This document shows, one piece after another, positions 23,605-44,189 of a stretch of DNA of 64,000 bases; the first letter of the stretch is position 1, and every line of letters begins with the position of its first letter. The notes under the pieces were generated by a model. It searched no databases. It saw nothing but the letters and a program-made list of their open reading frames with translations, and was not told the DNA's origin. Location of the stretch: the IMG/VR virus record IMGVR_UViG_3300042731_008559; one strand, written 5' to 3'. A program made the translations under genes and the position numbers. This DNA is from an uncultured virus (IMG/VR IMGVR_UViG_3300042731_008559) (taxonomy: Duplodnaviria > Heunggongvirae > Uroviricota > Caudoviricetes).

Positions 23605-23955
23605 ATGTATTCTCTCGCTCCTCTCGGCAGTGAAGCACTGCAACAGCCGACCGAGAGTGGCGGTTTACTTTCGTTGTCTCAGCAGGACTGGGACATCATC
23701 AAGCTCCTGGTGAAAATCGGTGTCGTAGGAACGATTGTTAGCCTGCCAATCGGGCTGTGGGCTATCAAGAAGTGGCCAGAAAGGCCAATAATTCCGGCGA
23801 TTATTCTGACGGCCGTCGGGCTCGCCATCAAAGAGATGATGCTTTCGCATGGCGAGGAGGAGGAGCCGACCGGGACAGAGCTTTACGAGGCTCCGCAGCT
23901 TGCTGGCTACTCTCGGGTGCCTGTCTACGTGCCCTATCGAGCCGCTGCGAACTGA
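23605..23955 (+). CDS. Small two-TM membrane protein
   Basis: MYSLAPLG start; two hydrophobic segments separated by KKWPE. Confidence 0.75.
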   Translation: MYSLAPLGSEALQQPTESGGLLSLSQQDWDIIKLLVKIGVVGTIVSLPIGLWAIKKWPERPIIPAIILTAVGLAIKEMMLSHGEEEEPTGTELYEAPQLAGYSRVPVYVPYRAAAN

Positions 23956-23971
23956 GCTGCCAAGGTTCGTT

Positions 23972-24015
23972 CATCCTCAAGACGCTTGCTTTAACATTTA
24001 AAGGCGTGATATGTT
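23972..24015 (+). promoter_or_regulatory. CATCCTCAAGACG box followed by a putative promoter
   Basis: Box 23972-23984; TTGCTT 23986-23991, TG-A-TATGTT 24007-24015; AT-rich intergenic region. Confidence 0.4.
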
Positions 24016-24069
24016 CTATCACGCCGGCCCCCTTCTGAGAAATTCAGAGAGAACTCCACCCTCAGGAGG

Positions 24070-25917
24070 ATGGGAATGCCTTACGAGCACTACCCCATGG
24101 CCGGCATGGGCGCTGCATCAACAGTCCAAACGTCGATTTCAAGAACACCTGCTTCAAAATCGGCCTACTACCCAACGTCAATCCCAACCATCGGGAAATC
24201 TGCGCCATCACAGGTTTCGACTGTCTCAGTGGCGCCAACTTCGACGGCGCGCACAGTGGCGCCAACGATGGTTGTGAAATCGACCGCTGGAAAAGCGGCG
24301 CCCACAGTTCCGATGTCCGCTGTGAAGGCTGTCGACGTTGCAACTCTTCGAATGTACCTGCGAAAGCGGTATCCGATATCTGTCTTTAACTCTATCAACT
24401 GGCATGCGACACCGATTCGGGTTCCTGCTGCAAACTATCGCAACTACCTCAACGCAAAGGCCAGAGTCCTCAGGACGCTGAAGGATTCGATCACGATCAC
24501 CGATATCGCGAAGAAGATTCAGCAGCAAGAAGCTGTGTCTCTTGCGGTCGCCCAACAACGTGCGCTCGGCAAGGTCGAGCTGTTCAAAAGCTGGTGTGAG
24601 GGGTGTGATAAGGACTTCTGGGCTGCGCTTCACACCTTTGCATCTTCGGCGAGCACTGTGTATCCGAATCATATCCCGGCTCTAACCTTCCAATACTGGG
24701 ATATCCGCCAGGATGCTCGGAACGGAAATGGGGGGAGAAGCGCCCCCGCGCCTGTAGGTTCGATTGGTCTCGGCGCTATCGAAGTCGGCGCAGTGCAGCG
24801 GCACGCTGAGCAGCGAAGAGACGCGGAGAAGCGACGGAGCCAGGAGGTGCGCGATCTGAGGGCTAGGCATGACGCCGAAAGAAAGGCCCTGGAGACGGCG
24901 ACCCCTGAAGTACGTGCAGAGGCTCGTGCTCGTCGCGAGCGAGAACGCACGGATATGTTCGCTCGACACGAGGCCGAGCGAAAGGCAGAGGACGCGATCC
25001 GGAAAACAGACGTCGAAACGGCTGGTGGGTCCAAGCGCTCAACGGCGGTCGGGGTGGTCGCCCCCATCTACGACGTCGCCGCCGAGAAAAACGTTGTTTC
25101 GTGCCCTGTCGGTACGGCTCGCATGGAGATCTTCGGTTACATCGAGCCGACGACCCCTTCAACGGCAGAAGAGGTCGCTCAAGATGCGACCACAGGTACA
25201 AGGCTACTGGTGCGGGGGGAGGAAGTGCACCGCAGAATCATGGAGGGCGAAAGGGAGCCAGAGGATCCTATCTACGACGTTGCGAAAGACCCAGAAAAAG
25301 CCGAGGAGGCCGTCCTTCAAGCGTCCCAAAAAGAAGAGGAAGTCGAGGATATCAAAGAAAAACTCGACTCGAAGAAGGACGAGCTTGACGCCAAGAAAGA
25401 CGAGGTTGCGGCCGGAACCGCAAGCCCTGAGGACTTGGAACGTTTGAAAAAAGAAGTCGATGAGCTGACGGCCGCGCTCGCCGCCGCTCAGAAGGAACAC
25501 CTCGAAGCAGCTCGCGTCGCTGCGGAAAAGAACCAGGAGCAGATTTACCGTATGGAGGAGGAAATCAATCGCCTTCGCCGTCTGCTCGCCGCTGGTGCTG
25601 TTCCACAGGGTCAGGTGTCACAGGTTCAAGAGACCATTCAGGACATGGAGCAGGATGTCGCCATAGCTGCTGAGGATGTTCTGGATGCTGAAACGGAAGC
25701 GAACGAAATACTGCAAGATATCAACCTCACCACCCAGGAGGCTGCGGCTACTGCCCAGGAGGTCGGCCCAGAGAGAACCTGGTGTCAGCAAAACTGGTGG
25801 TGGCTACTCCTTCTCGCGCTCGGGGTAGCAGGCGGTGGCTACTGGTACTACCGCCGTCGTCAACAGGAACTTCCGTCTTCGCCGTCTGGTCTTGAAGCCA
25901 ACATGGAAGACTACTGA
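24070..25917 (+). CDS. Large tail-anchored protein: YEHY..MAGMG leader, S/T/P-rich region, coiled coil, C-terminal TM
   Basis: SD CAGGAGG; MPYEHYPMAGMG; internal IGLG; long E/K/A heptads; WWWLLLLALGVAGGGYWYY followed by RRR. Confidence 0.85.
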   Translation: MGMPYEHYPMAGMGAASTVQTSISRTPASKSAYYPTSIPTIGKSAPSQVSTVSVAPTSTARTVAPTMVVKSTAGKAAPTVPMSAVKAVDVATLRMYLRKRYPISVFNSINWHATPIRVPAANYRNYLNAKARVLRTLKDSITITDIAKKIQQQEAVSLAVAQQRALGKVELFKSWCEGCDKDFWAALHTFASSASTVYPNHIPALTFQYWDIRQDARNGNGGRSAPAPVGSIGLGAIEVGAVQRHAEQRRDAEKRRSQEVRDLRARHDAERKALETATPEVRAEARARRERERTDMFARHEAERKAEDAIRKTDVETAGGSKRSTAVGVVAPIYDVAAEKNVVSCPVGTARMEIFGYIEPTTPSTAEEVAQDATTGTRLLVRGEEVHRRIMEGEREPEDPIYDVAKDPEKAEEAVLQASQKEEEVEDIKEKLDSKKDELDAKKDEVAAGTASPEDLERLKKEVDELTAALAAAQKEHLEAARVAAEKNQEQIYRMEEEINRLRRLLAAGAVPQGQVSQVQETIQDMEQDVAIAAEDVLDAETEANEILQDINLTTQEAAATAQEVGPERTWCQQNWWWLLLLALGVAGGGYWYYRRRQQELPSSPSGLEANMEDY

Positions 25918-25941
25918 AACCTTGGATGAAAGGCACAAACG

Positions 25942-27309
25942 ATGACTTATGAGTATATGACAGGGCTCGGGCAGATGACGGTAAAGCCACTCGCCGAGGG
26001 CACGATGACAATGCCTTCGAGCAATGGTGGTTCTACATCTGGTTCCAGCTCAAGTGGATCTTTCGCCAAAGGATCCAACCAGTTCACTCTTGCAAGTGCA
26101 TCTGGAATGAGGACGTTGGTCGGCGGCGCTTCGAGCACTGGAAAGACGGAGACAGAGCAGACCGCTGGAATCCAGTTGGTTATTTTCGGGACCATCCTGA
26201 CGCCGACCAATCCTCCCGGAACTGTCCTGACGATGCCCGAGGAGCGCTACAGCCTCAAGATGTGGAACTGCCAGATGTTTGGCAGCTCTTCGGCGGCATG
26301 CCGAAAGGATGAGGACCCCGAGTACACCTACATGGAGGCGGAGCTTCTGGCCGATTTCCGCAACGCCATGCTTTCTCAGGCTCAGCTCGGGCGCGATTTC
26401 TTCAACCCTGTCGCGGCTGCAACGACAACGCTGAAAAAGAGACGTGCGGAGGAGGATCGTAAAAGGTTCTTTTCATGGTGGCGTCGTTGCCACAAGCCCA
26501 CGTGGGCTATGTGGCTGACCACACACACTTTCAACGACAGCATCGTTCCGAGAGATGCCTTCAACTGGTTCGTCAGTCACCACGGCAGCAAGCTGCTTGG
26601 TGGTGGGACATTCGGGAAGAGCACGAGAACGCCGCCCTGTCCCAGCTCATCAACGCTCAATAGCCTGTTCAAAATCAAGGACCAGTGGAAGGCGTCCGAA
26701 ATGGCGGTCGCCCCGCCTGCTCAGGCAGGGCGAGACCCAGATACCCCTGTCGAATACCAGCCGCCAACAGATCCCGCAGAGATCGCCCAGATGACTTGCA
26801 AGCCAGGGGCTACTCTCTCGGTTATCGCTGAAAAGCGCTACGAGGAGCAGATGAGGGCAGAGGGCTGTGGTGTCGTGAAAACGATCGTCAGCGGAGCCCC
26901 AGACAAGAACATCTACTGCTGTCCACCAGACTTCCTGAGGCCATGGGAAACTCCTCCGGGGGTCGATCAGCGCGGGCAGCCTCAGCCGGAAACGGCTCCA
27001 GTCGATGATGCTGAGGGGCATGTTACGGTGACGACTCCGACACCGGAGCTAGATGTCGATCTCTCACCACTCGTGACGAACGGGAATGGGAACGGCGCTC
27101 CTCTCTATACCAATGGCGACCTGTTGGATGAAGAGCCCGGTTTCTTCTCTCGCTACAAGTGGTTCATCGCGATCGGCGCACTCGCGGCAATGGGCGGAGC
27201 CGCCTGGTGGTGGGTGAGACGATCCAGGGCCGAAGAAGAGGTGGCCGAGCTGGCTGAAAACATGATGCTTCCCCCACCAAAATCTCGACGTCACCCGTCG
27301 GGCCTGTAG
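25942..27309 (+). CDS. Tail-anchored YEY-leader protein with a Cys-rich module
   Basis: MTYEYMTGLG; S/G-rich region; EGC..YCCPP; TNGNGNG; TM followed by RRSR. Confidence 0.85.
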   Translation: MTYEYMTGLGQMTVKPLAEGTMTMPSSNGGSTSGSSSSGSFAKGSNQFTLASASGMRTLVGGASSTGKTETEQTAGIQLVIFGTILTPTNPPGTVLTMPEERYSLKMWNCQMFGSSSAACRKDEDPEYTYMEAELLADFRNAMLSQAQLGRDFFNPVAAATTTLKKRRAEEDRKRFFSWWRRCHKPTWAMWLTTHTFNDSIVPRDAFNWFVSHHGSKLLGGGTFGKSTRTPPCPSSSTLNSLFKIKDQWKASEMAVAPPAQAGRDPDTPVEYQPPTDPAEIAQMTCKPGATLSVIAEKRYEEQMRAEGCGVVKTIVSGAPDKNIYCCPPDFLRPWETPPGVDQRGQPQPETAPVDDAEGHVTVTTPTPELDVDLSPLVTNGNGNGAPLYTNGDLLDEEPGFFSRYKWFIAIGALAAMGGAAWWWVRRSRAEEEVAELAENMMLPPPKSRRHPSGL

Positions 27310-27318
27310 GGGGACGGC

Positions 27319-28104
27319 ATGTCTTACGTGTTCATCTCGCCCTACTATAACGTGACTCGTTGTCCGACGGATGGCGAGGATCAGGGCATGGGCGCTGAAT
27401 TCTTCGGCCCAGATCAGCCGTGGAGTCGTGAGAACGCGGGAAAGTGGATCACGTCGGAAACGCGTTCCTGTCCGAGTTCAAACGAGCGCAGCCATCTTCC
27501 GCCAAATTTGGGGCCTCCAAAGTATGCGCACCGGGGCGAAATGGTTCCGGATACAGCCTGCTACAAGACGGGACGTATCCAAGAAGCAAGAGCGCCTGGT
27601 GGCTCTCGTCGAGAAGAATGGTGCTGCCCAAAGCACACCTATGCTCCCAAGCGAACGCTGACGGCTGAAGAGGCTGATCGTTATCTATCGCTGGGGGTTT
27701 GCAACCCCATCACGATGCCGACAACGGGCGAGGAGTACCCGAGTGACCCAGAGTGGCGCGACAAGGATGCCTATATTCCGAACACCTGCCACACGACATC
27801 GGTCTATGACGGCGATTACAGGCTCATCTGCTGTAAGCGGAAAGAGCCTGGAAAAGTCCGTTTCGTAATGCCGGAAAACGGCATTCAGTTCGCGGCGCCC
27901 AGCGCCGAGATGATTGAGCAGCAGGCTCAGGAGCGAGAGGCGCGAATCGCTGAGACAGAGAGGATGCTCGCAGAAACGGCAGAGCCTCAGTACGGGTTCT
28001 TTCAACGATACGGCGTTTTCCTGCTCCTCGGCGTTGGAGCATTGGGAATCGGAATCACAGCCGGGCTCGTCAAGAGGGCCAAGGCGAAGAAGGACGAAGA
28101 ATAA
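27319..28104 (+). CDS. Tail-anchored Cys-rich protein (paralog of 30356)
   Basis: QGMG leader end; WCCP and ICCKR; EPQYGFFQRYG followed by TM and KRAKAKK. Confidence 0.85.
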   Translation: MSYVFISPYYNVTRCPTDGEDQGMGAEFFGPDQPWSRENAGKWITSETRSCPSSNERSHLPPNLGPPKYAHRGEMVPDTACYKTGRIQEARAPGGSRREEWCCPKHTYAPKRTLTAEEADRYLSLGVCNPITMPTTGEEYPSDPEWRDKDAYIPNTCHTTSVYDGDYRLICCKRKEPGKVRFVMPENGIQFAAPSAEMIEQQAQEREARIAETERMLAETAEPQYGFFQRYGVFLLLGVGALGIGITAGLVKRAKAKKDEE

Positions 28105-28125: not shown

Positions 28126-29007
28126 ATGTACGAGTACATGACAGGAATGGGGACTCAGGCATTCACGGACAGCGGGATACAACTTGGCCCTGGAGTTCCA
28201 GTGCCGCCTGATTCGGGGATCATTTTGGGCGCACCCACTTCGGTTGGTCCTGACCCGGGGATTATCCTTGGCCCCCCTGAATCCCTTCCTTCAGGTGGGA
28301 TGGTTTCTCCGGAGCTGACGGTGTTCGTCGACGAGCTGAAGGCCGAGAAGGGACCCTTCGTCTACCTGGACAAGGATTCGCCCAGCGGCATGGAGTTCGT
28401 TCAGTGGCTCATGGCCTATGACCAGGGCTACATGGACTGGTTCATGAAAATCATGGCCCTGAAGCTGTCCAAAGACTTGTTCATGGCCGAGGGCGTTGTG
28501 CTCCCCGAATGGCTCGAAGGAAACACTCTTCGGTTCAAGCAGGAGCTGTACAACCTCTACGTCGCCTCGATGAATCGTGTCCGGGCGCTTGTCGCCGCTG
28601 GAACGACGATGCCGGCCCTCGCTGATATGGAACCATTCCTTCGTTGGTGGGCTGAGGTCGATCGAGCGGGCTTTGCTGCCTTCATCGTCCAGAACGCTGA
28701 GGCTGGTGCCACTCCGACTGCGCTCCCTGTTCCCGCTGAGCTTTTCGCCTTCGCGAAGTCGACTCAGTGGAAGGGTGTTCCGTCGAACGCGATGCTCGGG
28801 CTCGACCACCCGCTTTGGGCAGGGATCAAGAATAACTGGTTTTGGATCCTCGGCGGCGTCGTTGGCGGTGCTGTCGCGGCCAAGGCGTGGAGAAACCGTC
28901 AGGAAAAGAAGGCGGTGGAGAGGCTGGGCAAGGCCAAGACTGTTCCGGCTGAGACAATGGTCGAGGTCCCGCGCCGAAACAAGACTCCCTGCAAGAACTG
29001 CTGGTGA
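28126..29007 (+). CDS. Tail-anchored YEY-leader protein
   Basis: MYEYMTGMG; three D[SP]GI.LG repeats; TM WFWILGGVVGGAVAA. Confidence 0.85.
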   Translation: MYEYMTGMGTQAFTDSGIQLGPGVPVPPDSGIILGAPTSVGPDPGIILGPPESLPSGGMVSPELTVFVDELKAEKGPFVYLDKDSPSGMEFVQWLMAYDQGYMDWFMKIMALKLSKDLFMAEGVVLPEWLEGNTLRFKQELYNLYVASMNRVRALVAAGTTMPALADMEPFLRWWAEVDRAGFAAFIVQNAEAGATPTALPVPAELFAFAKSTQWKGVPSNAMLGLDHPLWAGIKNNWFWILGGVVGGAVAAKAWRNRQEKKAVERLGKAKTVPAETMVEVPRRNKTPCKNCW

Positions 29008-29011: not shown

Positions 29012-29323
29012 ATGGCCTACGTCAGGACATCAGCGGCGCCTCTGGGTGTCGTGAGGACGGACACTCCGGAAGAGCGTGACGCTCTTGTCGCTGAGATGTT
29101 GGCGACTCCCGGAACGACGCAGCACTACGTCGGCTCGCGAGAGATCGAGGTTGGCGATACGTCCGTGCGCGTCCTCCCTGGTGTTCTGACGGTCAATTGG
29201 TACGGTGTCGCGATGCTGGGTGCTGTCATTGTTGGCGGTATCGCGGTCTACAAGCTTGTTTTCACAGAGAGCGGGAAGCGTCGCATCAACGAGATGATGC
29301 GTCGGTGGGCGTTGGAGTCCTGA
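29012..29323 (+). CDS. Small tail-anchored protein
   Basis: MAYVRTSAAPLG after GAGGT; TM WYGVAMLGAVIVGGIAVY. Confidence 0.75.
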   Translation: MAYVRTSAAPLGVVRTDTPEERDALVAEMLATPGTTQHYVGSREIEVGDTSVRVLPGVLTVNWYGVAMLGAVIVGGIAVYKLVFTESGKRRINEMMRRWALES

Positions 29324-29838
29324 TGGCATACGAGTACACAACGGCCTTGGCCGACTTGGACCCCGAGTCCTATGCCTATCGCGAGCTGTACAGCAGGATT
29401 GGCGCAGGACGAGGCGCTTTCAGACGAGCGACCGGCCGACCATGTCCCGAGACCGAGGGTGGACAGCGTTTCGCTCAGATGGACTGGATGGACGCCGAGC
29501 TGTACGGCCGCGCCGGTTGTGTAGACCTCGGTACGCAGGCTGTTCGAGCTGGCGTCGAGTGGAGCGATCCAGACGAAGAAAGACCGTTTGGCGCTAGAGC
29601 AATCCGCGACTACACGGACGTCTGGTGTTGCAACCCAGAGCGTGTCGAGCAGGTTTTTCAACAGTGGACTGAGAGCGATCAGTATCAGTCGAGGCGAAGG
29701 ACCATCGGCGTCATCCTTGTTGTTGGTGTTCTCGCGGCGCTCGCCTTGGTCGTGTGGAGTTGGAAGAAACGGGTCCAGGCTGGAGAGGACATTCCGTTCC
29801 TCGGCAAGACCGTAACGAGGGTAAGCCATGGCGTATGA
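29323..29838 (+). CDS. Tail-anchored YEY-leader protein with a WCC module
   Basis: MAYEYTTALA; AGC..WCCNP; TM followed by WKKR. Confidence 0.8.
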   Translation: MAYEYTTALADLDPESYAYRELYSRIGAGRGAFRRATGRPCPETEGGQRFAQMDWMDAELYGRAGCVDLGTQAVRAGVEWSDPDEERPFGARAIRDYTDVWCCNPERVEQVFQQWTESDQYQSRRRTIGVILVVGVLAALALVVWSWKKRVQAGEDIPFLGKTVTRVSHGV

Positions 29839-30352
29839 GTACATGACGGGGATGGGTGCGGGTGAGACGATTTCTGCTTTCTTTGGACCGGCTTTTCTCA
29901 AGCAAGCAACTGAGACGACATCGTCGAATGGCGTGGCAGCTTTTCGTCGTCTTCGTGAAGGTCGCCAGGAGAGGATAGCGGCTATTCGCGAACAAGCATG
30001 CAGCGGGGTAGGTTGCCCCGATGGCACAGTTCGAGAAGGCGTTCGACCCGACTACAGCGATGCGGTGGCCGCGCTCGCTCTTGAAAACGAAATGCGCGAA
30101 AGAGGATGCTCCCTTCAGTGCATGGAAGATGGGATGTCCTGGTACTGCTGCCCGCAGGCCATTCAACAGATGACCTTGATGATGCCGACTGAGCTTGAGG
30201 TCACTCCGCAGGAAACTGCTGAAACTGCTGCGCCAGCAGAAGAGGCACTGCCCGCTGAGCAGCCGGGCGGCTTCCCATGGGGAGCCGTCGCGGTGCTGGG
30301 AGTTTTGGGTCTCGGTATCGGTGGGGCGGTCTGGTACTGGAAAACGAGGTAG
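29828..30352 (+). CDS. Tail-anchored YEY-leader protein with a Cys-rich module
   Basis: MAYEYMTGMG; RGC..WYCCP; TM followed by KTR. Confidence 0.85.
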   Translation: MAYEYMTGMGAGETISAFFGPAFLKQATETTSSNGVAAFRRLREGRQERIAAIREQACSGVGCPDGTVREGVRPDYSDAVAALALENEMRERGCSLQCMEDGMSWYCCPQAIQQMTLMMPTELEVTPQETAETAAPAEEALPAEQPGGFPWGAVAVLGVLGLGIGGAVWYWKTR

Positions 30353-32382: not shown

Positions 32383-32390
32383 GAGATGTT

Positions 32391-37244: not shown

Positions 37245-38618
37245 ATGGCTTTTACCAAGGATCGCACAAAGAAAACGCTGACCTGGCTCGATTTCTATGG
37301 CCTTTGCAGGGAAGCGGGGATGAGCCCTTTCGCCACTCAGCAGTATATGGACGAAGGGAGCGATACCGTCAACGGTGCGATGGCCGAGATGGCTGCGAAC
37401 GCAGGGGCCGAGGATGCTGAAAGCGAGGCGGTCACCGATGCCGTAGGCGATGCGATGATGGCCATTGGAGCCGGAATTGTTGCAGTCGCAGGTGAGTCCG
37501 TCATCGGCGCGGTCGTGGGTATTGTGATTGCAGCAATTGGCGCCATCGTCAAGTGGTTCGCCAAGCTCTTCTATGTCGAGTGCGACAAGTATCACTGCGG
37601 TGGGTATGACAGAAACACGAAGACGCGAAGGCGTCGATATGCGCAGCACCAGCAAGCACTTGTTGGAGTGAATCTGACTCGGGCGTCTAAAAGCGCGACA
37701 GATGCAGAAAGTAACTGCCGGTGCAAGCTCCGAAGCCACGAGTGCTCGTTCATTCGATACATGCATGACGGGCTCATGGTCAATGGCATAGACCTCGATC
37801 AAACAGATGCTCAGCCCACGACGGCAGGCCGAGTGCGTGGTGTCAACGGTTACGGCCGGGGGTACAACGAAGGCTGTGAGAGATACTGGCGAGACCACGC
37901 CGACTACAAGCCGCTGAAAGAAGATGGAAACGCTATTTCAACGGGAAGCAGAAGCGACCCATGGGAAAATTCCATTGATAGCTATTACGGCCGATCTTTC
38001 AGGGTCCATGCGGTCCTCTGGTGGATGCAGGAGCACATCCTTTGCAGGACGATGGAGTGTATGGAAGATGTGCTTCTGAACACAACAAGTGTCGAGGGTG
38101 ATAGCTCCGGCAATCAGAAGCGTCGAAGGGGATCCCGCTGGTATGCGTCGATTGTCTGGATGATGAACGACGTTTGGGAGACGGGAAAGAAGCTCGGATG
38201 GAGTGAGTTCGAGAGGTTGTCGCGCGAGGTCGGGGCGAATGATACCGTCATCGCTGATCTTCATAAGATGCGCGATGGACACGTTTATCCCCCCGAGCAA
38301 ATGCCATTTCAATGGTGGCCCTTCCTCTACCATTTCTCCTGGTGGCAGCTCCGTGACCTGCTCATCAAGATGAAGCCGCTCTTCCCCTACGAGCCGCCCG
38401 TTGGTCAGGCCGCTCCAGAAGGTGAGGAGGCGCGCGTTCGAACAGTAACGCTCGCTCCGATGCTGATTCCGATCCGCACGGCAGTGAAGTTCAACCGCAA
38501 CATGCAGCCTGTCCCAGCCCACGTCGGTCCCCGTGGTCCTGGGTTGGGAACAATCGCGTTTGGAGCTGGTGCGGCGGCAATCGGCGCCTTCGCGGTATAT
38601 AAGCTGGTGACGTCATGA
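37245..38618 (+). CDS. Membrane protein with internal hydrophobic hairpin, Cys-rich domain and C-terminal TM (paralog of 38615)
   Basis: LTWLDFYGLCREAGMSPFATQ, ECDKYHCGGYDR, ILCRTMECMEDVL and RRRGSRWYASIVWMM shared with the next gene. Confidence 0.85.
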   Translation: MAFTKDRTKKTLTWLDFYGLCREAGMSPFATQQYMDEGSDTVNGAMAEMAANAGAEDAESEAVTDAVGDAMMAIGAGIVAVAGESVIGAVVGIVIAAIGAIVKWFAKLFYVECDKYHCGGYDRNTKTRRRRYAQHQQALVGVNLTRASKSATDAESNCRCKLRSHECSFIRYMHDGLMVNGIDLDQTDAQPTTAGRVRGVNGYGRGYNEGCERYWRDHADYKPLKEDGNAISTGSRSDPWENSIDSYYGRSFRVHAVLWWMQEHILCRTMECMEDVLLNTTSVEGDSSGNQKRRRGSRWYASIVWMMNDVWETGKKLGWSEFERLSREVGANDTVIADLHKMRDGHVYPPEQMPFQWWPFLYHFSWWQLRDLLIKMKPLFPYEPPVGQAAPEGEEARVRTVTLAPMLIPIRTAVKFNRNMQPVPAHVGPRGPGLGTIAFGAGAAAIGAFAVYKLVTS

Positions 38619-40075
38619 CGATGCGTGCTCGAACAACAACCACGTTGATGTGGTTGGATTTTTATGGCCTGTGCCGAGAGGCTGGGATGAGCCCTTTCGC
38701 TACCCAGGAGTACATGGACAGCGGCAGCGAGACGGTCTCGACGGCGATGGCCGAGATGGCTGCCAATGCCACAGCTTCGGACGACGAGAACGAGGCCACT
38801 ACAGATGCTGTTGGTAACGCGCTGATGGGGATCGGCGCGGCCATCGCTATCATCCCAGGTGTAGGAACCATCATCGGCGTCGTGCTAGCGGCGATCGGCG
38901 CCATCGTCAGGTGGTTCGCCAAGCTATTCTACATCGAGTGCGACAAGTATCACTGTGGCGGATATGACAGGGATACAAGCTACGACAGAAGGAATTACAC
39001 ACGGCACTTGCAAGCGCTCGTTGGGCTTCATCCTGGGAATGAGTCCAAATGGACTAACAAGAGCGATTGCGGGTGCGACTACAAGAGCCACCGCTGCTCC
39101 TTTATCAAGTACTTCCATGACGGCCTGATTGTTGAGGGCCTCGACGTTGATGTGATGGAGGCAGAGCCTGTTTCGGCTGGACAGGTTCGAGGGGCGAATG
39201 CCCTCAGAATGCCCCAGCTATTCCTCGGTGACGGGAGAGTTATAGGGAAAACTGCAGCGAATGCCTGGTGCATAGAGCGCTGGCGGACAAACAGTAAATA
39301 CGCGCCACTTACTGCTAACGGAAGAAGACTATACCTGGGGTGGGGTGGTTCTAACCCATCTACAGACGAAATTGTTAAGAGCATGTCGGAACCGTGGACA
39401 TGCCCGGCGGGGACATATTTCGCCCGTTCTTGGAAAGTTCACAACATCCTCGCTTGGATGGAACTGGATCAGATCCTTTGCCGCACCATGGAGTGCATGG
39501 AGGACGTGCTCGAAGGCATGCCGGCTGTAGGCGAGGACGACGTTCACGATCAAAGACGTCGTCGAGGTTCTCGTTGGTACGCGTCCATCGTGTGGATGAT
39601 GCACGATGTCTGGGTCTACGGCCGAAAGCTGGGTGGAGAGAGATTTCGAGAGATTCTCAGAGAAGCCGGGGTGACAGAGACGGCGATCGATGTCCTGGGA
39701 CAGATGAGGAAGGGTAAAGAATACGAGCCCATGGATGTGCCATTCGAGTGGTGGCCCTTCATGCGCTTTGTCTCCTTCTGGCAGATGAGGGCCATGCTCG
39801 TCGAGATGCACGATGAGTTTCCCTACGTTCCAGTCATGACAAAGATGGATGGCGAGCCGCGCGGTGCGGAGGCGAGGGCTCAGTCGACAGTGCTTGGTCC
39901 GATGATGCTTCCGATTCTTCAGCCGATCACATTTGGCGATCGCCTGAAGCCACGGCCGGCGCCTCGAAGACTGGGTCGGCGAGGCCCAAGCATCGGAGTT
40001 CTCGCGTTTGGCGTAGGCGCAGCAGCGGTCGGGGCGTTTGCGATCTATAAGCTGATCGCACCGACGGAGAGTTGA
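38615..40075 (+). CDS. Paralog of 37245
   Basis: Same conserved blocks with a divergent central insert. Confidence 0.85.
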   Translation: MTMRARTTTTLMWLDFYGLCREAGMSPFATQEYMDSGSETVSTAMAEMAANATASDDENEATTDAVGNALMGIGAAIAIIPGVGTIIGVVLAAIGAIVRWFAKLFYIECDKYHCGGYDRDTSYDRRNYTRHLQALVGLHPGNESKWTNKSDCGCDYKSHRCSFIKYFHDGLIVEGLDVDVMEAEPVSAGQVRGANALRMPQLFLGDGRVIGKTAANAWCIERWRTNSKYAPLTANGRRLYLGWGGSNPSTDEIVKSMSEPWTCPAGTYFARSWKVHNILAWMELDQILCRTMECMEDVLEGMPAVGEDDVHDQRRRRGSRWYASIVWMMHDVWVYGRKLGGERFREILREAGVTETAIDVLGQMRKGKEYEPMDVPFEWWPFMRFVSFWQMRAMLVEMHDEFPYVPVMTKMDGEPRGAEARAQSTVLGPMMLPILQPITFGDRLKPRPAPRRLGRRGPSIGVLAFGVGAAAVGAFAIYKLIAPTES

Positions 40076-40077: not shown

Positions 40078-40680
40078 ATGTACGAATACAACACCGGAAA
40101 AAGTGTTTCGACCAAGCCATACCCTACGGCGCTCGGTGCGCTTGGCGATCGCTACATTCCTTTTAGCGAGACCAGGCGCGTAGCTCCTTGGGCGATCGCT
40201 GAGGTCTCTCTGGAAAACGTCAACTGTCGCTGTTACCACAATGCTCCGCGTGAAGAAGTGCTTCGGTCGTCTGTTCCGTACACCATGGAGATTTCCGTAC
40301 CGGGGCACAACTTCATCTGCTCCTGCAATGCTTCAACGGAGTGTCCTCCCGAAGTACATCAGGGGGCACATCAGCGGGATCCGTGGCGTGAGCGCCGCTG
40401 CGCTGAATGGAGAGAGCAGTGGCTACAAGAGGGCGCTGATCTCATCGCGTCTCCGGGGTTCCGTGAGGCCATGAGCGAGAAGGTTCTTGACGTCGCTGGC
40501 ATAACCGGTTGGCGAAGGAGGCTTGTCAAGCCGGCCGAGTTTCTTCAGGTCATCGAAGAACGAGAGCGGCGAGAGCGACCGATCAAGGCGTTTGCGATCA
40601 TCACCCTTGCTGTTGGTGGAGGCGCCCTGTTCTGGACGTGGCTCCGCAAGCGTAAGAAAGCTCGTGAGGGCGAAGAATAG
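40078..40680 (+). CDS. Tail-anchored YEY-leader Cys-containing protein
   Basis: MYEYNTG..ALGALG; CRC and CSC; TM followed by RKRKK. Confidence 0.8.
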   Translation: MYEYNTGKSVSTKPYPTALGALGDRYIPFSETRRVAPWAIAEVSLENVNCRCYHNAPREEVLRSSVPYTMEISVPGHNFICSCNASTECPPEVHQGAHQRDPWRERRCAEWREQWLQEGADLIASPGFREAMSEKVLDVAGITGWRRRLVKPAEFLQVIEERERRERPIKAFAIITLAVGGGALFWTWLRKRKKAREGEE

Positions 40681-41351: not shown

Positions 41352-41759
41352 ATGTCTCAGTACGTGCGAAGGACATACGGACCCGGCGACATCGCCGCGC
41401 TTCCACCAACGATCGGACTGACGAGCCGGGAACCGACAATCGGTGCTGAGGACGTCGGCCGACCTATCAAGCCAGCTTTCCCGTTCAAGCCGATGCATCC
41501 GAAGGCTGGAGCACCGGTTCGACAGGCTGGGCTGTTTGGGATGGGCCTGGATTACCAGGTCTTTCCAACGGTTTACTGTGGAGGTGCACCTGCCGGATCA
41601 GGCAATCGTGGAGCCGGTGCTGGCATGGGAACCAATGGCAGCGGAAACGGAAACGGAAACGGTGGTTGGATGCTCCCCGTGGGCGTCGGTCTGGCCATCG
41701 GAATCGGTCTCGCCTACATGCTGCGAAAGCGCGAGGAAGAGGCCGAGCTGGCTTTCTAG
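41352..41759 (+). CDS. Small tail-anchored Gly/Pro-rich protein (paralog of 41787)
   Basis: MSQY..YGPG.I.AL..PPTIG; LFGMG; GMGTNGSGNGNGNG; TM followed by RKR. Confidence 0.8.
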   Translation: MSQYVRRTYGPGDIAALPPTIGLTSREPTIGAEDVGRPIKPAFPFKPMHPKAGAPVRQAGLFGMGLDYQVFPTVYCGGAPAGSGNRGAGAGMGTNGSGNGNGNGGWMLPVGVGLAIGIGLAYMLRKREEEAELAF

Positions 41760-41786
41760 GCCAGCAGGAATCAGGAGAGGTAGAAA

Positions 41787-42134
41787 ATGTCTCAGTACAT
41801 CATGAAGTCTTACGGCCCCGGAAGCATCGGTGCGCTCATCCCGGGCGCAGCGCTCTCACATCCGCCGACGATCGGCTCGAACGATCCCATCAGGGATATC
41901 GGCTCAGCCGTTCACGGTGCGTCCAGGATTCCAGCGGCTCCGACGGGTCGCGTTCCCTCGATGGGGGGCTGCGGCTGTGGAATGGGTGTGGACAACGGCG
42001 TCTTCTCGAACGGCGACGGCGTGTTCAGCGGCATGGGAACGGCCAACGGCAACGGCAGCATGATGCCGTTCCTCGGTCTCATTCTCGCACCGGTCGCGGC
42101 GGTCGGCATCGTGTGGGGACTCTCCAAGCTCTAG
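41787..42134 (+). CDS. Small tail-anchored Gly-rich protein
   Basis: MSQY..YGPG; GGCGCGMG; FSGMGTANGNG; TM. Confidence 0.8.
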   Translation: MSQYIMKSYGPGSIGALIPGAALSHPPTIGSNDPIRDIGSAVHGASRIPAAPTGRVPSMGGCGCGMGVDNGVFSNGDGVFSGMGTANGNGSMMPFLGLILAPVAAVGIVWGLSKL

Positions 42135-42143: not shown

Positions 42144-42572
42144 ATGTACGAGTCGAACAGGTCGGGCGCTGGCTGCCTGGGCTGTGAGGAGAGCGGTCTC
42201 GGCGTAATCGGAATGATAGGCCGGCGTCTCGAAGGTGGTGCCGCGCTGGCGGCTCATGCATCGCAGCTCATGCAGGAGAACCCGCAAGGGTTCCAGGTGA
42301 TGGCCGAGGCCCTTACTGCAGCTTCAGAGCAGCAGAAAGAGCAGCGACGACAAGAACACCTGGCGCGGCAAGAAGCTCAGCAGGCCGCGGATCAGGCTGA
42401 ATGGGAGTCTGGTCGCCAGGCGACGCAAGAGCGACTAATGCGTCAACAGGCCGAGGCAGAGCAGCGAACTGGGATGATCGTCATGGGGATTGGCGGTGTC
42501 GTCCTCCTCTCTCTGGTTGGCGGCGGTATTTGGTGGCTCGTCAAGAGAAGGCGAGCCGCGGAGGAGGAGTGA
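42144..42572 (+). CDS. Small tail-anchored protein with GCLGC leader and Q-rich helix
   Basis: MYESNRSGAGCLGCEESGLG; TM LVGGGIWWL followed by KRRR and EEE. Confidence 0.85.
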   Translation: MYESNRSGAGCLGCEESGLGVIGMIGRRLEGGAALAAHASQLMQENPQGFQVMAEALTAASEQQKEQRRQEHLARQEAQQAADQAEWESGRQATQERLMRQQAEAEQRTGMIVMGIGGVVLLSLVGGGIWWLVKRRRAAEEE

Positions 42573-42853
42573 TGTACGAGTACAACCCTCACGGAATGGG
42601 AAGCGAGCCCGTTCTTCTCAACATCGGGCCACAGATTTCATCGATCGATCCGGAATTCGCTGCTCAGCAACAGGCGGCTCGTGCTGCTGCCGAGGCTGGA
42701 GAGGAAGACATCCCTCACCCGGAGCCTGGTGGTTTCGAGCATGAGGAGGGGCTCCCGTGGTGGGTTTGGGGCGTCGGAGGCGTGGCAATACTCGGGGCCA
42801 TCGGTGGTGGTGTCTGGTGGTGGATGAAACGCGGCGAATCCGAGGAGGAGTAG
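42572..42853 (+). CDS. Small tail-anchored YEY-leader protein
   Basis: MYEYNPHGMG; PWWVWGV..GGGVWWW followed by KRGESEEE. Confidence 0.85.
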   Translation: MYEYNPHGMGSEPVLLNIGPQISSIDPEFAAQQQAARAAAEAGEEDIPHPEPGGFEHEEGLPWWVWGVGGVAILGAIGGGVWWWMKRGESEEE

Positions 42854-42856
42854 GCC

Positions 42857-43144
42857 ATGTATCAGGCAAGCACATCAGGAACAGGTTGTCTTGGGTGCGG
42901 CCTGGGTACAGAGGATGATTCCTCGGGCCAAATGATGAGGATCGTGAGTATCGATCCTTCGGCCATTCGGTTCGCGTTGGCCGCTCGTCAGGGTGAAGTT
43001 ACAGGCCTGCCAACAAATGGCCAGGTGAGTGCTCCTCCTGGGATGCCTTGGTGGGTTTGGGGCGTTGCTGGTGTTGGGCTGCTTGGTTTCATTGGCGCAG
43101 GCGTCTGGTGGTATCTGCGGCCGAGCGAAGAGGCAGCGGAGTAA
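42857..43144 (+). CDS. Small tail-anchored protein with GCLGCGLG leader
   Basis: MYQASTSGTGCLGCGLG; PGMPWWVWGVAGVG TM. Confidence 0.85.
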   Translation: MYQASTSGTGCLGCGLGTEDDSSGQMMRIVSIDPSAIRFALAARQGEVTGLPTNGQVSAPPGMPWWVWGVAGVGLLGFIGAGVWWYLRPSEEAAE

Positions 43145-43165
43145 CCGCGGTAGAAAAGGGTTTTC

Positions 43166-43522
43166 ATGTATCAGCAGAGCACAGCAGGGGCCGGGTGTCT
43201 TGGGTGCGGCCTTGGGTCAGTTATCGCATCGGTCCAAGATCGGGGGGGTATCAGCACTGTAGGTCCAGGGACTCTTCAGGCGACGAGCTTGATTTCGAGC
43301 CCCGGCGTTCGCGGCGTAATACAAGCCATCGAAAGAGGCGACATCGTGCTCCCCGATCCCGAGCAGCAGAGCACAACAGATACTTACGCCCTTGATGAGC
43401 CAGGAGCCCCAGGGATGCCAATGTGGGTCTACGGTGTAGCTGGCGTTGGTATTCTCACACTCGTTGGCGGAGGCATTTGGTGGCTCATCAAGCGTGGCGA
43501 GGGCGAAGAGTCCGAGGAGTAG
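43166..43522 (+). CDS. Small tail-anchored protein with GCLGCGLG leader
   Basis: MYQQSTAGAGCLGCGLG; PGMPMWVYGVAGVG TM followed by KRGE..EE. Confidence 0.85.
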   Translation: MYQQSTAGAGCLGCGLGSVIASVQDRGGISTVGPGTLQATSLISSPGVRGVIQAIERGDIVLPDPEQQSTTDTYALDEPGAPGMPMWVYGVAGVGILTLVGGGIWWLIKRGEGEESEE

Positions 43523-43535
43523 GTGGGGAGGATCG

Positions 43536-43922
43536 ATGTACGAATACATGACAGGACTTGGTACTGATGACGTCAGGCCGATGGGGGTCATGCCAGACGG
43601 AAGAACGATTCCTCCTGTCCATGAGTGGGACTGGGCGATCCCCGCGGATGCGAGGTTCCGCGGGATTCAGGTCCCTGAGACAGAGGAAGAGCGCGAAGCT
43701 TTTATGGCGCAGATCGAGGCTGGTCTGGTGCCTGAGGGAGTCTGGGTCAACCCACACTTCCGACAGTGGGGCCGACGGCCCGAAGAGGGAGAGCCAGGTC
43801 ACACGGTCGAGCCCGGCCCAGATCCTGAGAGCGGTGCTTACTGGGTCAAGATCGGGATCGTGTCTGTTGGGATCGTCGCTCTTATCGGCGGCATCGCTCT
43901 GTTCACAACAGCAGGGAAGTGA
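43536..43922 (+). CDS. Small tail-anchored YEY-leader protein
   Basis: SD GGAGG; MYEYMTGLG; C-terminal TM. Confidence 0.85.
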   Translation: MYEYMTGLGTDDVRPMGVMPDGRTIPPVHEWDWAIPADARFRGIQVPETEEEREAFMAQIEAGLVPEGVWVNPHFRQWGRRPEEGEPGHTVEPGPDPESGAYWVKIGIVSVGIVALIGGIALFTTAGK

Positions 43923-43925
43923 TTC

Positions 43926-44189
43926 ATGCAGAGCCCTGACGCCAATATGCCGAACCAGATGCCGCTCTCAGACCCGGCGACGCTCGAACCGTTCGTGGAG
44001 CAATACGCTGTCGTCATAGGTCAGCAAGAGGCGGCGCTGCATCAGCATCCGGCGCAGGCAGTCGCAAATCAAGAGCTGGCCCGGGTGCGAGAAAGCCAGC
44101 GCCCGTGGTACGTGCGGAGACGATGCGATCTCGTGGCGTGGGGAGCCATCACGGGGATGGTCATCGGCTACATCCTGAGGTCGAGATGA
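43926..44189 (+). CDS. Small tail-anchored protein
   Basis: Q-rich helix, PWY and C-terminal TM; ATGA-coupled to the first EMGY gene. Confidence 0.7.
   Translation: MQSPDANMPNQMPLSDPATLEPFVEQYAVVIGQQEAALHQHPAQAVANQELARVRESQRPWYVRRRCDLVAWGAITGMVIGYILRSR

What the first reader, a model, noticed from the sequence alone, without database searches (positions are those of the whole stretch)
23605..44189. About 30 consecutive membrane proteins, many sharing an M-x-YEY...G[LM]G leader and C-terminal anchor without a Sec signal peptide
Seen: starts include MTYEYMTGLG, MYEYMTGMG, MAYEYMTGMG, MSYEYMTGLG, MYEYMTGLG, MPYEHYPMAGMG, MYEYNPHGMG, MSYYGPYGMG, MYEYNTG..ALG, MAYEYTTALA and MTYEAYEYSPVG, plus MSYEYSPGFAG at 3174. 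Bodies are mostly unrelated, and most end in a Gly/Trp-rich TM with a basic then acidic tail. Known: M-T-G-[LM]-G and M-A-G-[LM]-G fit the adenovirus protease consensus (M/I/L)xGx|G, and Gly-directed maturation of virion precursors is typical of several tail-less dsDNA viruses. Inference: this is a conserved targeting or propeptide signal on the membrane proteome of a large membrane-containing virion, or a novel sorting signal.
Basis: partly seen in the sequence, partly recalled or inferred. Interest (0 to 1): 0.85.

Follow-up and report, generated by a model that had tools for sequence, protein, structure and literature searches.

The report
Shared N-terminal tag on membrane proteins
An uncultured, phage-like DNA element of at least 165 kb puts the same short Tyr-x-Tyr ... 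Gly-Leu/Met-Gly tag at the very start of many otherwise unrelated membrane-anchored proteins, which looks like an undescribed address label for building a virus-specific membrane, though what reads the tag is unknown.

Summary
In 23605-44189, 29 of 31 ORFs have a membrane segment and 25 end in one. Twelve window ORFs start M-(x)-Y-E-Y/H, one of them a membrane-anchored MoxR ATPase outside the given coordinates. Ten more carry variants (MSYVF, MSYYG, MSQY, MYQ).

The core is Y-x-aromatic at residues 2-5, then a variable spacer of 2-30 residues, then G-[LMF]-G. It is selected at protein level, because synonymous codons vary. It recurs in nine metagenomic relatives at 35-55% identity and in all 17 database homologues of one family. 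It is about 50-fold rarer in 1 Mb of control phage DNA.

The bodies are unrelated (0 of 91 profile pairs). AlphaFold leaves the leader disordered and starts the fold right after G-L-G.

The adenain consensus fits only 6 of 12 window leaders and 11 of 37 in relatives. No capsid, terminase, portal or protease gene was found in the window. The virion type and any cleavage therefore remain untested.

Best reading: a sorting or docking tag for a virus-specific membrane proteome. Rivals: an export signal, a tyrosine-modification site, and a glycine-directed propeptide.

The parts
24076..25917 (+). 613-aa leader protein MPYEHYPMAGMG. Long charged coiled-coil body, Trp/Gly-rich C-terminal anchor, RRR tail.
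25942..27309 (+). 455-aa leader protein MTYEYMTGLG. 8 Cys including YCCPP. C-terminal anchor with a basic then acidic tail.
27319..28104 (+). 261-aa variant leader MSYVF...(17-residue spacer)...GMG. Paralogue of 30356. Orthologues keep GMG directly before the conserved GPDQPW.
28126..29007 (+). 293-aa leader protein MYEYMTGMG, with an anchor 41 residues from the C-terminus.
29012..29323 (+). 103-aa variant leader MAYVRTSAAPLG, C-terminal anchor.
29323..29838 (+). 171-aa leader protein MAYEYTTALA (no G-x-G hinge), C-terminal anchor.
29828..30352 (+). 174-aa leader protein MAYEYMTGMG, C-terminal anchor.
30356..31099 (+). 247-aa leader protein MSYEYMTGLG, C-terminal anchor, KKRSQSEE tail.
31099..33262 (+). 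Three proteins without a leader that have N-terminal anchors instead (31099-32382, 32391-32879, and 32879-33262 with DUF5661).
33262..33990 (+). 242-aa C-anchored protein without the leader. Its own N-terminus MAHDNYxxFYTW is conserved in relatives.
33987..36021 (+). Three variant-leader, C-anchored proteins: MSYYGPYGMG (33987-34532), MSYYGPGSLFSLG (34532-35092) and MSYGIQ (35092-36021). Orthologues of the last begin MSYEY in L008 and L010.
36051..36679 (+). Two small soluble coiled-coil proteins without a leader, conserved in relatives.
36692..37231 (+). 179-aa leader protein MTYEAYEYSPVG. Orthologues read M-[TSA]-Y-E-Y-x(2-5)-G-[LM]-G-[DG]-[LV]-P.
37245..40075 (+). Two paralogous polytopic membrane proteins (457 and 486 aa) without a leader. 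They are the most conserved family of the cluster, with 34 database homologues. The helical model has pLDDT 77.6 and pTM 0.81 and no PDB match.
40078..40680 (+). 200-aa leader protein MYEYNTG...ALGALG-DRY. Tyr2 is invariant in 22 of 22 family members. AlphaFold leaves residues 1-21 disordered and begins the fold at DRY.
41352..42134 (+). Two variant-leader paralogues, MSQY[VI]...GPG[DS]I[AG]AL, both C-anchored.
42144..43522 (+). Four small paralogous anchor proteins: MYESNRSGAGCLGC..GLG, MYEYNPHGMG (42572-42853), MYQASTSGTGCLGCGLG and MYQQSTAGAGCLGCGLG. Anchors are Trp/Gly-rich, tails are KR then EE.
43536..43922 (+). 128-aa leader protein MYEYMTGLG, C-terminal anchor.
3174..3848 (+). Leader protein MSYEYSPGFAG outside the cluster, with no membrane segment. 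Two CarboxypepD_reg-like beta-sandwich repeats.
45267..48307 (+). Two MoxR-type AAA ATPases (phrog_1297). Each has an N-tail with a CxxC motif, one Trp/Gly-rich membrane segment, K/R, and then the ATPase domain. The first starts MYEYNTKGRQPLG and carries three G[LM]GAIQPSEAQLF repeats.
49047..50780 (+). DUF2201_N metallopeptidase (HELWH) fused to a VWA domain. It is conserved downstream of the cluster in L001, L004, L009 and L010. Candidate leader peptidase, untested.
10516..23572 (+). Upstream glycan/modification gene cluster: two GT4, a CsaB-like pyruvyl transferase fused to a methyltransferase, several GT2, a SPASM-maturase-like radical SAM at 19292-20278, and a GT2 fused to a sulfotransferase-like domain at 21112-22770. 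This is context for the modification rival.

Best explanation
The leader is a protein-level sorting or docking tag of an uncultured, phage-like element.

Anatomy (shown). Met, sometimes Ser/Thr/Ala, then Tyr, any residue (mostly Glu, also Ile/Val), then an aromatic residue (Tyr, less often Phe or His). A spacer of variable length and sequence follows. A Gly-(Leu/Met/Phe)-Gly hinge sits directly before the folded domain. The tag is carried by at least 10 sequence-unrelated single-pass proteins and by a membrane-anchored MoxR ATPase.

Mechanism (inferred). The two aromatic side chains at i and i+2 would face the same side of an extended strand, while the middle residue is free to vary. I therefore propose that the free N-terminal peptide docks as a short strand into a pocket of a virus-encoded receptor, such as a capsid or scaffold protein or an assembly factor. 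The spacer acts as a tether. In this way unrelated proteins are gathered into one virus-specific membrane or assembly, in the way T4 capsid-targeting sequences gather unrelated internal proteins. The tag may then be clipped at the hinge. The neighbouring VWA-metallopeptidase with its two MoxR ATPases is the only candidate protease or chaperone seen.

Neither binding nor cleavage has been shown.
For: 1. The tag is position-locked at the N-terminus and far above chance.

2. It is selected at amino-acid level. Synonymous codons vary near background use.

3. It is conserved in relatives.
- Across the window and the nine non-redundant metagenomic loci there are 38 M-x(0-2)-YE[YH] starts, 11 of them in the window.
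- 49 of 189 predicted proteins of the window cluster plus those loci start M-x(0-2)-Y-x-[YFH]. The middle residue is E 38, I 5, V 2, others 4. The third residue is Y 38, F 7, H 4. In 40 of the 49 a G[LMF]G-type hinge follows after 2-30 residues.

4. Within one orthologous family all 17 database homologues start MY[EI][YF], MSQYEY or MSYER. Tyr2 is invariant in 22 of 22 sequences while mean column identity is 27%.

5. The hinge abuts the conserved mature domain in orthologue sets: GMG before [FL]VGPDQPW, GLG before DLPTW, and GLG-x before DRY.

6. AlphaFold2 on that family gives pLDDT below 50 for residues 1-21 and block means of 72-96 for the rest. The leader is a flexible appendage and not part of the fold.

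7. The bodies are unrelated: 0 of 91 hhalign pairs reach 50%.

8. The tag goes with membrane anchoring and not with expression in general. It is absent from the glycosyltransferases and from the roughly 18 paralogues at 44-64 kb.

9. Control. In 80 IMG/VR loci (1,001,301 bp) that encode MoxR-like ATPases there are 3 M-x(0,1)-Y-[EIV]-[YF] starts. The relatives have 24 in 110,032 bp and the window has 11 in 64,000 bp.

10. The MoxR and VWA-metallopeptidase genes follow the cluster in all 4 loci that reach that far.

11. Precedent: T4 internal proteins are diverse and share only a capsid-targeting sequence (PMC3012670, passages read).
Against: - No receptor was identified.
- No capsid, scaffold, portal, terminase or maturation protease was found in the window or in the relatives' loci.
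- It is not shown that the element is a virus at all. The supporting signs are one-strand gene order, ORFans, and phage-type ATPase and metallopeptidase hits.
- Topology is unresolved. If the ATPase domains are cytoplasmic, their leader-bearing N-tails lie on the far side of the membrane, where a cytoplasmic capsid or the signal-less metallopeptidase could not reach them.
- Some cluster proteins with the same C-terminal anchor lack the tag (33262, 43926).
- One tagged protein has no anchor (3174).
- The ATPase N-tail repeats G[LM]G three times, which fits a binding or hinge element better than a single cut site.
Confidence: 0.45

Rival explanations
1. Export or insertion signal. The leader directs the N-terminal domain across a membrane without a Sec-type signal peptide, giving N-out, C-in single-pass proteins. 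A dedicated machine would do this, perhaps the two membrane-anchored MoxR ATPases together with the conserved 457/486-aa polytopic proteins.
For: - Both ATPases have the order N-tail, Trp/Gly-rich segment, K/R, AAA domain. With the ATPase domain in the cytoplasm, the tagged N-tail must be on the trans side. All nine homologues keep this segment.
- The small proteins use the same style of anchor. K/R lies within three residues after it in 25 of 28 anchors. K+R in the 12 flanking residues is 72 after the anchor against 46 before.
- Some members of the 40078 family carry a further domain after the anchor and a strongly basic stretch, so they are bitopic.
- Proteins with N-terminal anchors or no anchor in the cluster lack the tag.
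- Classical signal-peptide-like N-termini exist elsewhere in the window (2666, 6007), so tagged proteins are a separate class.
Against: - N-domains of up to about 570 charged, coiled-coil residues (24076) are unlikely to cross a membrane without a known translocon.
- Cysteine content and parity do not set the tagged proteins apart. They have 1.82% Cys against 1.42% elsewhere. Even counts against odd counts are 13:5 against 24:12.
- In the 486-aa family the positive-inside rule puts a similar C-terminal helix the other way round.
- No translocase-like family was detected.
Confidence: 0.2
2. Modification acceptor. The Y-x-Y/H/F triad is a site for a tyrosine modification (cross-link, sulfation or O-glycosylation) made by enzymes of the adjacent upstream cluster, and it is not an address label.
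For: - Y-x-H and Y-x-Y triads are the motifs cross-linked in biarylitide peptides. A YEY motif was cross-linked by the P450 ShyB, and radical SAM enzymes make related three-residue cyclophanes (PMC12150307, passages read).
- A radical SAM enzyme whose best but sub-threshold matches are SPASM-type peptide or cofactor maturases lies at 19292-20278.
- GT2 enzymes, methyltransferases and a sulfotransferase-like domain (Sulfotransfer_3, 26.0 bits against a cut-off of 27) lie at 10.5-23.6 kb.
- Acidic residues next to tyrosine are typical of tyrosine-sulfation sites (recalled, not checked).
Against: - The radical SAM has only 4 close database homologues, against 34 for the 486-aa family and 17 for the 40078 family. 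None of them sits on a contig whose length matches a contig of those families, so it does not travel with the leader.
- There is no P450 in the window.
- Glu is replaced by Ile or Val in whole sub-lineages.
- All family matches of the cluster enzymes are far below their curated cut-offs, and the cluster looks like ordinary glycan synthesis.
- This reading does not explain the hinge or the tie to membrane anchors.
Confidence: 0.12
3. Glycine-directed propeptide of a tail-less membrane virus. An adenain/Ulp1-like cysteine protease cuts at G-[LM]|G during maturation of a double-jelly-roll virion.
For: - M-T-G-[LM]-G and M-A-G-M-G fit (M/I/L)XGX-G (PMC3386624, passage read) in 6 of 12 window leaders.
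- The hinge sits exactly at the border of the folded domain.
- Vaccinia removes the N-terminus of membrane protein A17 in an I7-dependent step linked to loss of the D13 scaffold (PMC4213562, passage read).
- Earlier notes of this scan report Gly-ended leaders in other uncultured large bacterial viruses. These are leads only.
Against: - The hydrophobic P4 residue is not conserved: 11 of 37 leaders in relatives have it at the hinge.
- Shine-Dalgarno sites and overlapping genes point to a prokaryotic host, where no clan CE maturation protease is known to me.
- No such protease, double-jelly-roll capsid or A32/FtsK ATPase was detected.
- The invariant part of the signal is the N-terminal Y-x-Y and not the glycines.
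Confidence: 0.1
4. Inherited remnant. The proteins descend from one ancestral tail-anchored gene and merely keep its ends, and the leader has no signal function.
For: - There are several clear paralogue pairs or groups: 27319/30356, 41352/41787, 42144-43522 and 45267/46844.
- An aromatic-Cys-Cys-Pro motif recurs in at least 8 bodies.
- The MSA depth used for hhalign was shallow.
Against: - 0 of 91 stripped body pairs reach 50% probability.
- Tyr2 is as conserved as the core residues, while the spacer next to it changes freely in length and sequence. That is purifying selection on the tag itself.
- The tag also sits on an AAA ATPase and on a beta-sandwich protein.
Confidence: 0.05
5. Translation or mRNA signal. 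The start of the coding region is shaped for initiation efficiency and not for the protein.
For: - TAC is somewhat over-used at the first Tyr: 33 of 38 against a background of 0.66.
- The motif is relatively A/T-rich within a 56% GC genome.
Against: - Glu codons are split 20/18, third-position Tyr codons 27/7, and Gly and Leu codons of the hinge vary.
- The motif is missing from the non-membrane genes of the same element.
- The spacer varies in length, so no fixed RNA element links the two parts.
Confidence: 0.04

Closest known systems
Bacteriophage T4 capsid targeting sequence (CTS) of internal proteins
   Same: A short N-terminal peptide is the only feature shared by otherwise diverse proteins, and it serves to load them into one viral assembly (PMC3012670, passages read).
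   Different: T4 cargo is soluble and goes into the prohead core. Here the carriers are single-pass membrane proteins. The motif (Y-x-Y ... G-Phi-G) is different. No HK97 capsid or prohead protease was seen. That the CTS is removed after a Glu by the prohead protease is recalled, not read.
Adenovirus protease (AVP) substrates, consensus (M/I/L)XGX-G and (M/I/L)XGG-X
   Same: Glycine-flanked sites at the edge of a mature domain. The local variant M-T-G-[LM]-G fits the consensus (PMC3386624 and PMC4246237, passages read).
   Different: The consensus holds for only 6 of 12 window leaders and 11 of 37 in relatives. No clan CE protease was detected. The host appears prokaryotic. The conserved core is the N-terminal Tyr pair.
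Vaccinia A17 N-terminal processing (I7-dependent) and release of the D13 scaffold
   Same: The N-terminal tail of a viral membrane protein is tied to scaffold contact and is removed in maturation (PMC4213562, passage read).
   Different: Vaccinia has one or two substrates and no shared tag on some 20 proteins. It is a eukaryotic virus. No homologues are present here.
Encapsulin cargo-loading peptides
   Same: A conserved terminal peptide on a flexible linker of variable length docks cargo to a shell protein.
   Different: They are usually C-terminal, the cargo is soluble, and the motif is different.
Sec, Tat and lipoprotein signal peptides
   Same: An N-terminal address on proteins that end up in or beyond a membrane.
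   Different: The leader has no hydrophobic core, no twin arginine and no lipobox.
C-terminal sorting signals (LPXTG, PEP-CTERM, GlyGly-CTERM; recalled)
   Same: A stereotyped C-terminal helix followed by basic residues on many unrelated proteins.
   Different: No shared signature motif precedes the helix. No sortase, exosortase or rhombosortase family was detected. The distinctive signal here is N-terminal.
Three-residue cross-link motifs of biarylitides (Y-x-H, Y-x-Y)
   Same: The same triad chemistry. YEY can be cross-linked by a P450 (PMC12150307, passages read).
   Different: Those are precursor peptides of five or so residues encoded beside a P450. Here the triad heads proteins of 90-600 residues, and no P450 is present.

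Membership tests
Sec-type signal peptide | Basic n-region followed by a hydrophobic core of 7-15 residues within the first ~30 residues | tested here: not met
   The N-termini of the 22 leader-class proteins are polar. Only 43166 has an uncharged Gly/Ala/Cys-rich run at 5-23.
Tat signal peptide | Twin-arginine motif (S/T-R-R-x-F-L-K) before a hydrophobic core | tested here: not met
   No RR motif appears in any leader N-terminus printed.
Tail-anchored membrane protein architecture | Single membrane segment close to the C-terminus and no signal peptide | tested here: met
   In 25 of 31 ORFs of 23605-44189 the last hydrophobic segment ends 41 residues or less from the C-terminus. Actual insertion and orientation were not tested.
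Adenain-type (clan CE) maturation system | Substrate site (M/I/L)XGX-G or (M/I/L)XGG-X | tested here: inconclusive
   The site is present at the hinge in 6 of 12 window leaders and 11 of 37 leaders of relatives. It is not a conserved feature of the signal.
Adenain-type (clan CE) maturation system | A Peptidase_C5/C57/C48-like cysteine protease gene in the genome | tested here: inconclusive
   No such Pfam, PHROG or NCBIfam hit was found in the window ORFs or in 39 ORFs of relatives. Only 64 kb of at least 165 kb was visible.
T4-type capsid targeting sequence | Short N-terminal peptide shared by otherwise unrelated proteins | tested here: met
T4-type capsid targeting sequence | Cargo is soluble and is packed inside an HK97-fold prohead, and the tag is removed by the prohead protease | tested here: inconclusive
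   The carriers here are membrane-anchored. No HK97 capsid, portal or prohead protease was detected in the window. Removal of the tag cannot be tested with these tools.
Membrane-containing double-jelly-roll virus (Tectiviridae/Corticoviridae-like) | [quoted passage not shown] | tested here: inconclusive
   Neither was detected in the window or the relatives' loci. The only ATPases found are MoxR-type. The rest of the element could not be read.
Membrane-containing double-jelly-roll virus (Tectiviridae/Corticoviridae-like) | Block of small virion membrane protein genes | tested here: met
   29 of 31 consecutive ORFs have membrane segments. Whether they are virion proteins is not known.
Sortase / exosortase / rhombosortase C-terminal sorting signals | Signature motif (LPXTG, PEP, GG) just before the helix, plus the cognate enzyme | tested here: not met
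   The 12 residues before each anchor share no such motif. No enzyme family hit was found.
Biarylitide / three-residue cyclophane RiPP precursors | Aromatic-x-aromatic triad next to a P450 or a dedicated radical SAM that is co-conserved with it | tested here: inconclusive
   The triad is present. There is no P450. A radical SAM lies at 19292-20278, but it has only 4 close homologues against 34 and 17 for cluster families.

The most novel reading that the evidence does not exclude
The clade represents very large (165-290 kb contigs) membrane-containing viruses of bacteria. They would run their own Sec-independent sorting pathway. The N-terminal Y-x-aromatic peptide, on a flexible tether ending in G-Phi-G, would be read by a virus-encoded machine: membrane-anchored MoxR ATPases, a VWA-metallopeptidase and a novel-fold polytopic protein. 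That machine would place, and then trim, dozens of unrelated single-pass proteins in a virus-specific membrane. Together with the similar but non-identical leaders noted by this scan in other uncultured large bacterial viruses, this would be a general and undescribed principle of viral membrane biogenesis.
Probability: 0.2. Interest if true: 0.9.

Novelty: new variant of a known kind. Interest (0 to 1): 0.72.

Why it matters
How membrane-containing prokaryotic viruses pick their own proteins out of the host membrane is an open question.

A short, sequence-defined tag shared by about 20 unrelated membrane proteins makes that question testable. It is conserved across a whole uncultured clade that is absent from IMG/VR and from GTDB species genomes. 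The tests are tag swaps, Tyr-to-Ala mutants, pull-downs and N-terminomics.

The tag also gives a simple sequence handle for finding the membrane proteome of related elements in metagenomes. If the tag is portable, it could be used to load foreign proteins into such membranes.

Tried and rejected
1. Whole genome: none is held for this window. The genome search on the metagenome loci was not possible. Capsid, terminase and protease genes outside the 64 kb could therefore not be sought.

2. Family scans found nothing for 30 of the 31 cluster ORFs. Libraries were Pfam, PHROGs and NCBIfam on the window and Pfam on 39 ORFs of relatives. The one exception is DUF5661. No virion hallmark was found.

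3. The leader DNA pattern and the 486-aa family are absent from IMG/VR. The 486-aa family is absent from GTDB genomes. The ATPase profile found only distant phage ATPases at 25-33% identity and one weak genome hit. None of the 80 IMG/VR loci has a run of leaders.

4. Structure of the 486-aa protein. The model is good (pTM 0.81), but there is no Foldseek match (best E 0.59) and no VIA-align match above Z 4.5. A PDB profile search found nothing. My idea that it is a transglutaminase- or papain-like protease has no support.

5. The 40078 model found no PDB match (best E 0.11).

6. ESM Atlas on two proteins gave no usable hit.

7. 6007-6996 as a lytic transglycosylase (E-S ... GMFQF, read by eye) was not confirmed by Pfam or by a PDB sequence search.

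8. Complex prediction (metallopeptidase-VWA with a leader peptide) was not available. Nothing was folded.

9. The promoter and terminator scan of the cluster was uninformative.

10. Cysteine parity as a marker of an extracytoplasmic location showed no difference from other window proteins.

11. Resemblance of ...MTGG... leaders to the T7 gene 10 'downstream box' (recalled) was dropped, because relatives keep Y-x-Y and not the MTG part.

12. Literature. Full-text searches listed no paper describing such a leader or large tail-less bacterial viruses (from listings, with 0 papers, with 2 unrelated papers). Supplements were not consulted.

Full report
**The element**

The 64-kb window has about 76 substantial ORFs, all on the + strand. 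GC is 0.52-0.61, and there is no tRNA. Genes abut or overlap. GGAG/GAGG-type ribosome-binding sites precede the starts, so the host is prokaryotic.

The layout, from Pfam, PHROGs and NCBIfam:
- 0-10 kb: miscellaneous genes, including a multi-HTH protein, an SGNH hydrolase and a stand-alone TSCPD piece.
- 10.5-23.6 kb: a glycan/modification cluster.
- 23.6-44.2 kb: the block of membrane proteins.
- 45.3-50.8 kb: two MoxR-type AAA ATPases (phrog_1297) and a DUF2201_N metallopeptidase-VWA protein.
- 44-64 kb: about 18 paralogues of an unknown family.

No capsid, portal, terminase, packaging ATPase or maturation protease was detected. No whole genome is held.

The protein index shows the window's own 486-aa protein on a contig of 165,556 bp and its homologues on contigs of up to 290,051 bp. 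The family is absent from IMG/VR and from GTDB species genomes. Phage-type hits exist only for the ATPase and the metallopeptidase domain. A large phage-like element is the most economical reading, but this is inferred.

**The observation**

One more sits on the first AAA ATPase at 45267.

The signal is far above chance:
- 11 of 16 + strand YE[YH] tripeptides lie 1-3 codons after an ATG (P 5.6e-11).
- The back-translated YEYMTG[LM]G pattern occurs 5 times against 0 in 100 shuffles.

Membrane character of the block:
- 29 of 31 ORFs have a hydrophobic segment.
- 25 of 31 have it at the C-terminal end.
- Three have N-terminal anchors and two are soluble coiled coils.

The tag goes with anchoring:
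- 10 of 12 strict leaders have a TM by my filter, and an 11th has one that the filter missed.
- 20 of 22 in the wider M[STA]?Y class have one, against 11 of 54 others (P 1.2e-8).
- G[LMF]G lies within the first 30 residues in 12 of 22, against 1 of 54.

'Basic then acidic tail' holds for only about 10 anchors. A basic residue right after the helix holds for 25 of 28.

**Anatomy of the leader**

I compared the window with nine non-redundant metagenomic loci. These were fetched with the 486-aa family at 37-50% identity and keep conserved gene order. The comparison refines the motif:
- 49 of 189 predicted proteins start M-x(0-2)-Y-x-[YFH].
- The middle residue is E 38, I 5, V 2, others 4.
- The third residue is Y 38, F 7, H 4.
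- In 40 of 49 a G[LMF]G-type element follows after 2-30 residues.

Within orthologue sets the two ends are fixed, while the spacer changes in length and sequence. The hinge directly precedes the first conserved residues of the body: GMG before [FL]VGPDQPW, GLG before DLPTW, and GLG-x before DRY.

For the 40078 family, all 17 database homologues start MY[EI][YF] (15), MSQYEY (1) or MSYER (1). Tyr2 is invariant in 22 of 22 sequences, against a mean column identity of 27%.

AlphaFold2 with that alignment gives pLDDT below 50 for residues 1-21 and block means of 72-96 for the rest. The leader is a flexible appendage.

**Protein level or nucleotide level**

Synonymous sites vary across 38 instances:
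- First Tyr: TAC 33 / TAT 5 (background TAC 0.66).
- Glu: GAG 20 / GAA 18.
- Third position: TAC 27 / TAT 7.

Gly and Leu codons of the hinge also differ.

The tag is also not a general feature of phage genes. In 80 IMG/VR loci (1.0 Mb) there are 3 such starts. The relatives have 24 in 110 kb and the window has 11 in 64 kb.

**Shared ancestry**

With the leader and anchor removed, 0 of 91 pairs among 14 body families reach 50% hhalign probability (maximum 17.8%). Clear paralogue groups do exist, and an aromatic-Cys-Cys-Pro motif recurs. The tag also sits on an AAA ATPase and on a CarboxypepD_reg-like beta-sandwich protein.

**Mechanism**

What is shown:
- A position-locked N-terminal Y-x-aromatic peptide.
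- A free spacer.
- A G-Phi-G border.
- Disorder of the leader.
- Strong purifying selection.
- A link to single-pass anchoring.

What I infer is a docking or sorting tag. Alternate aromatic residues with a free middle residue suggest binding as a short extended strand, and the spacer would act as a tether. The nearest analogue is the T4 capsid-targeting sequence, which is the only shared feature of diverse internal proteins (PMC3012670, passages read).

Clipping at the hinge is possible. The only protease-like gene seen is the HELWH metallopeptidase-VWA protein. With the MoxR ATPases, it follows the cluster in all four loci that extend far enough.

**Topology**

Topology is the main open point. 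Both ATPases read N-tail, Trp/Gly-rich segment, K/R, AAA domain. That puts their tagged N-tails on the trans side if the ATPase is cytoplasmic. Some 40078 homologues carry a further domain after the anchor and a basic stretch. This favours an N-out orientation and hence an export-signal reading.

Against it:
- N-domains reach about 570 charged residues.
- Cysteine statistics do not distinguish the tagged proteins.

**Other rivals**

Adenain-like model. It rests on the local MTG[LM]G variant, which fits 6 of 12 window leaders and 11 of 37 in relatives.

Tyrosine-modification reading. It has chemical precedent: Y-x-H and Y-x-Y cross-links occur, including on YEY (PMC12150307, passages read). A SPASM-maturase-like radical SAM and a sulfotransferase-like domain lie upstream. 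However, the radical SAM has only 4 close homologues, against 34 and 17 for the cluster families. Glu is also replaced by Ile or Val in whole sub-lineages.

**The 486-aa family**

This is the most conserved family of the cluster. It gives a confident helical model (pLDDT 77.6, pTM 0.81) with no PDB match.

**Context from this scan**

Earlier notes describe similar but non-identical Gly-ended leaders with C-terminal anchors in other uncultured large bacterial viruses. These are untested leads. No sequence overlap with them was found.

**Verdict**

The tag has no described family. I rate it a new variant of N-terminal targeting or propeptide signals, with a one-in-five chance that it marks a new viral membrane-sorting pathway.

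Noticed in passing
window 44186-64000; also L001 19252-21352, L004 16705-20547, L010 13937-15618: About 18 consecutive paralogues share a ~60-residue N-terminal domain (I-E-C-D-G ... V ... G-x-L-x-F-x-DYD ... EMGY-x-P) and often have very acidic C-termini. No Pfam, PHROG or NCBIfam family matches them, and ESM Atlas has no usable hit. The MoxR and VWA genes are embedded in this array.
   Followed up: partly
window 25942-37231 (eight ORFs): An aromatic-Cys-Cys-Pro motif (YCCPP, WCCPK, WCCNP, YCCPQ, WCCAL, YCCPP, FCCPP, WCCPG) recurs in at least eight otherwise unalignable ectodomains. 27319 and 30356 also share ICCKR[KR]EPG.
   Followed up: partly
window 42144-43522, 45267-46847 and 46844-48307: A C-x-G-C motif lies close to the leader in three small anchor proteins (G-x-G-C-L-G-C) and in the N-tails of both MoxR ATPases (CVGCQNS, CAGCSNLG). 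The first ATPase N-tail has three 13-residue repeats G[LM]GAIQPSEAQLF.
   Followed up: no
window 37245-40075: Tandem paralogues of a polytopic membrane protein with invariant Cys, Asp and Arg residues (ECDKYHCGG, HDG, LCRTMECM, QKRRRGSRWY). The AlphaFold model is confident and has no match among solved structures.
   Followed up: yes
window 10516-23572: A twelve-gene glycan/modification cluster in a phage-like element: two GT4, a CsaB-like pyruvyl transferase fused to a methyltransferase, at least four GT2, a radical SAM nearest to SPASM-type maturases (all matches below cut-off), and a GT2-like N-domain fused to a sulfotransferase-like C-domain with a GRSFCGSTLL loop.
   Followed up: partly
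window 9603-10250: A stand-alone TSCPD domain protein matches only the C-terminal part of class II (B12-dependent) ribonucleotide reductases (NCBIfam E 1.4e-37, far below the full-length cut-off).
   Followed up: no
window 2666-3166 and 6007-6996: Two proteins with classical signal-peptide-like hydrophobic N-termini. 6007 has an E-S ... GMFQF pattern that recalls lytic transglycosylases, but no family or PDB sequence match confirmed it.
   Followed up: partly
window 3851-4756: A 301-aa ORF with an NFDAHHDLGY motif reminiscent of arginase/deacetylase-fold metal sites (recalled). No family hit.
   Followed up: no
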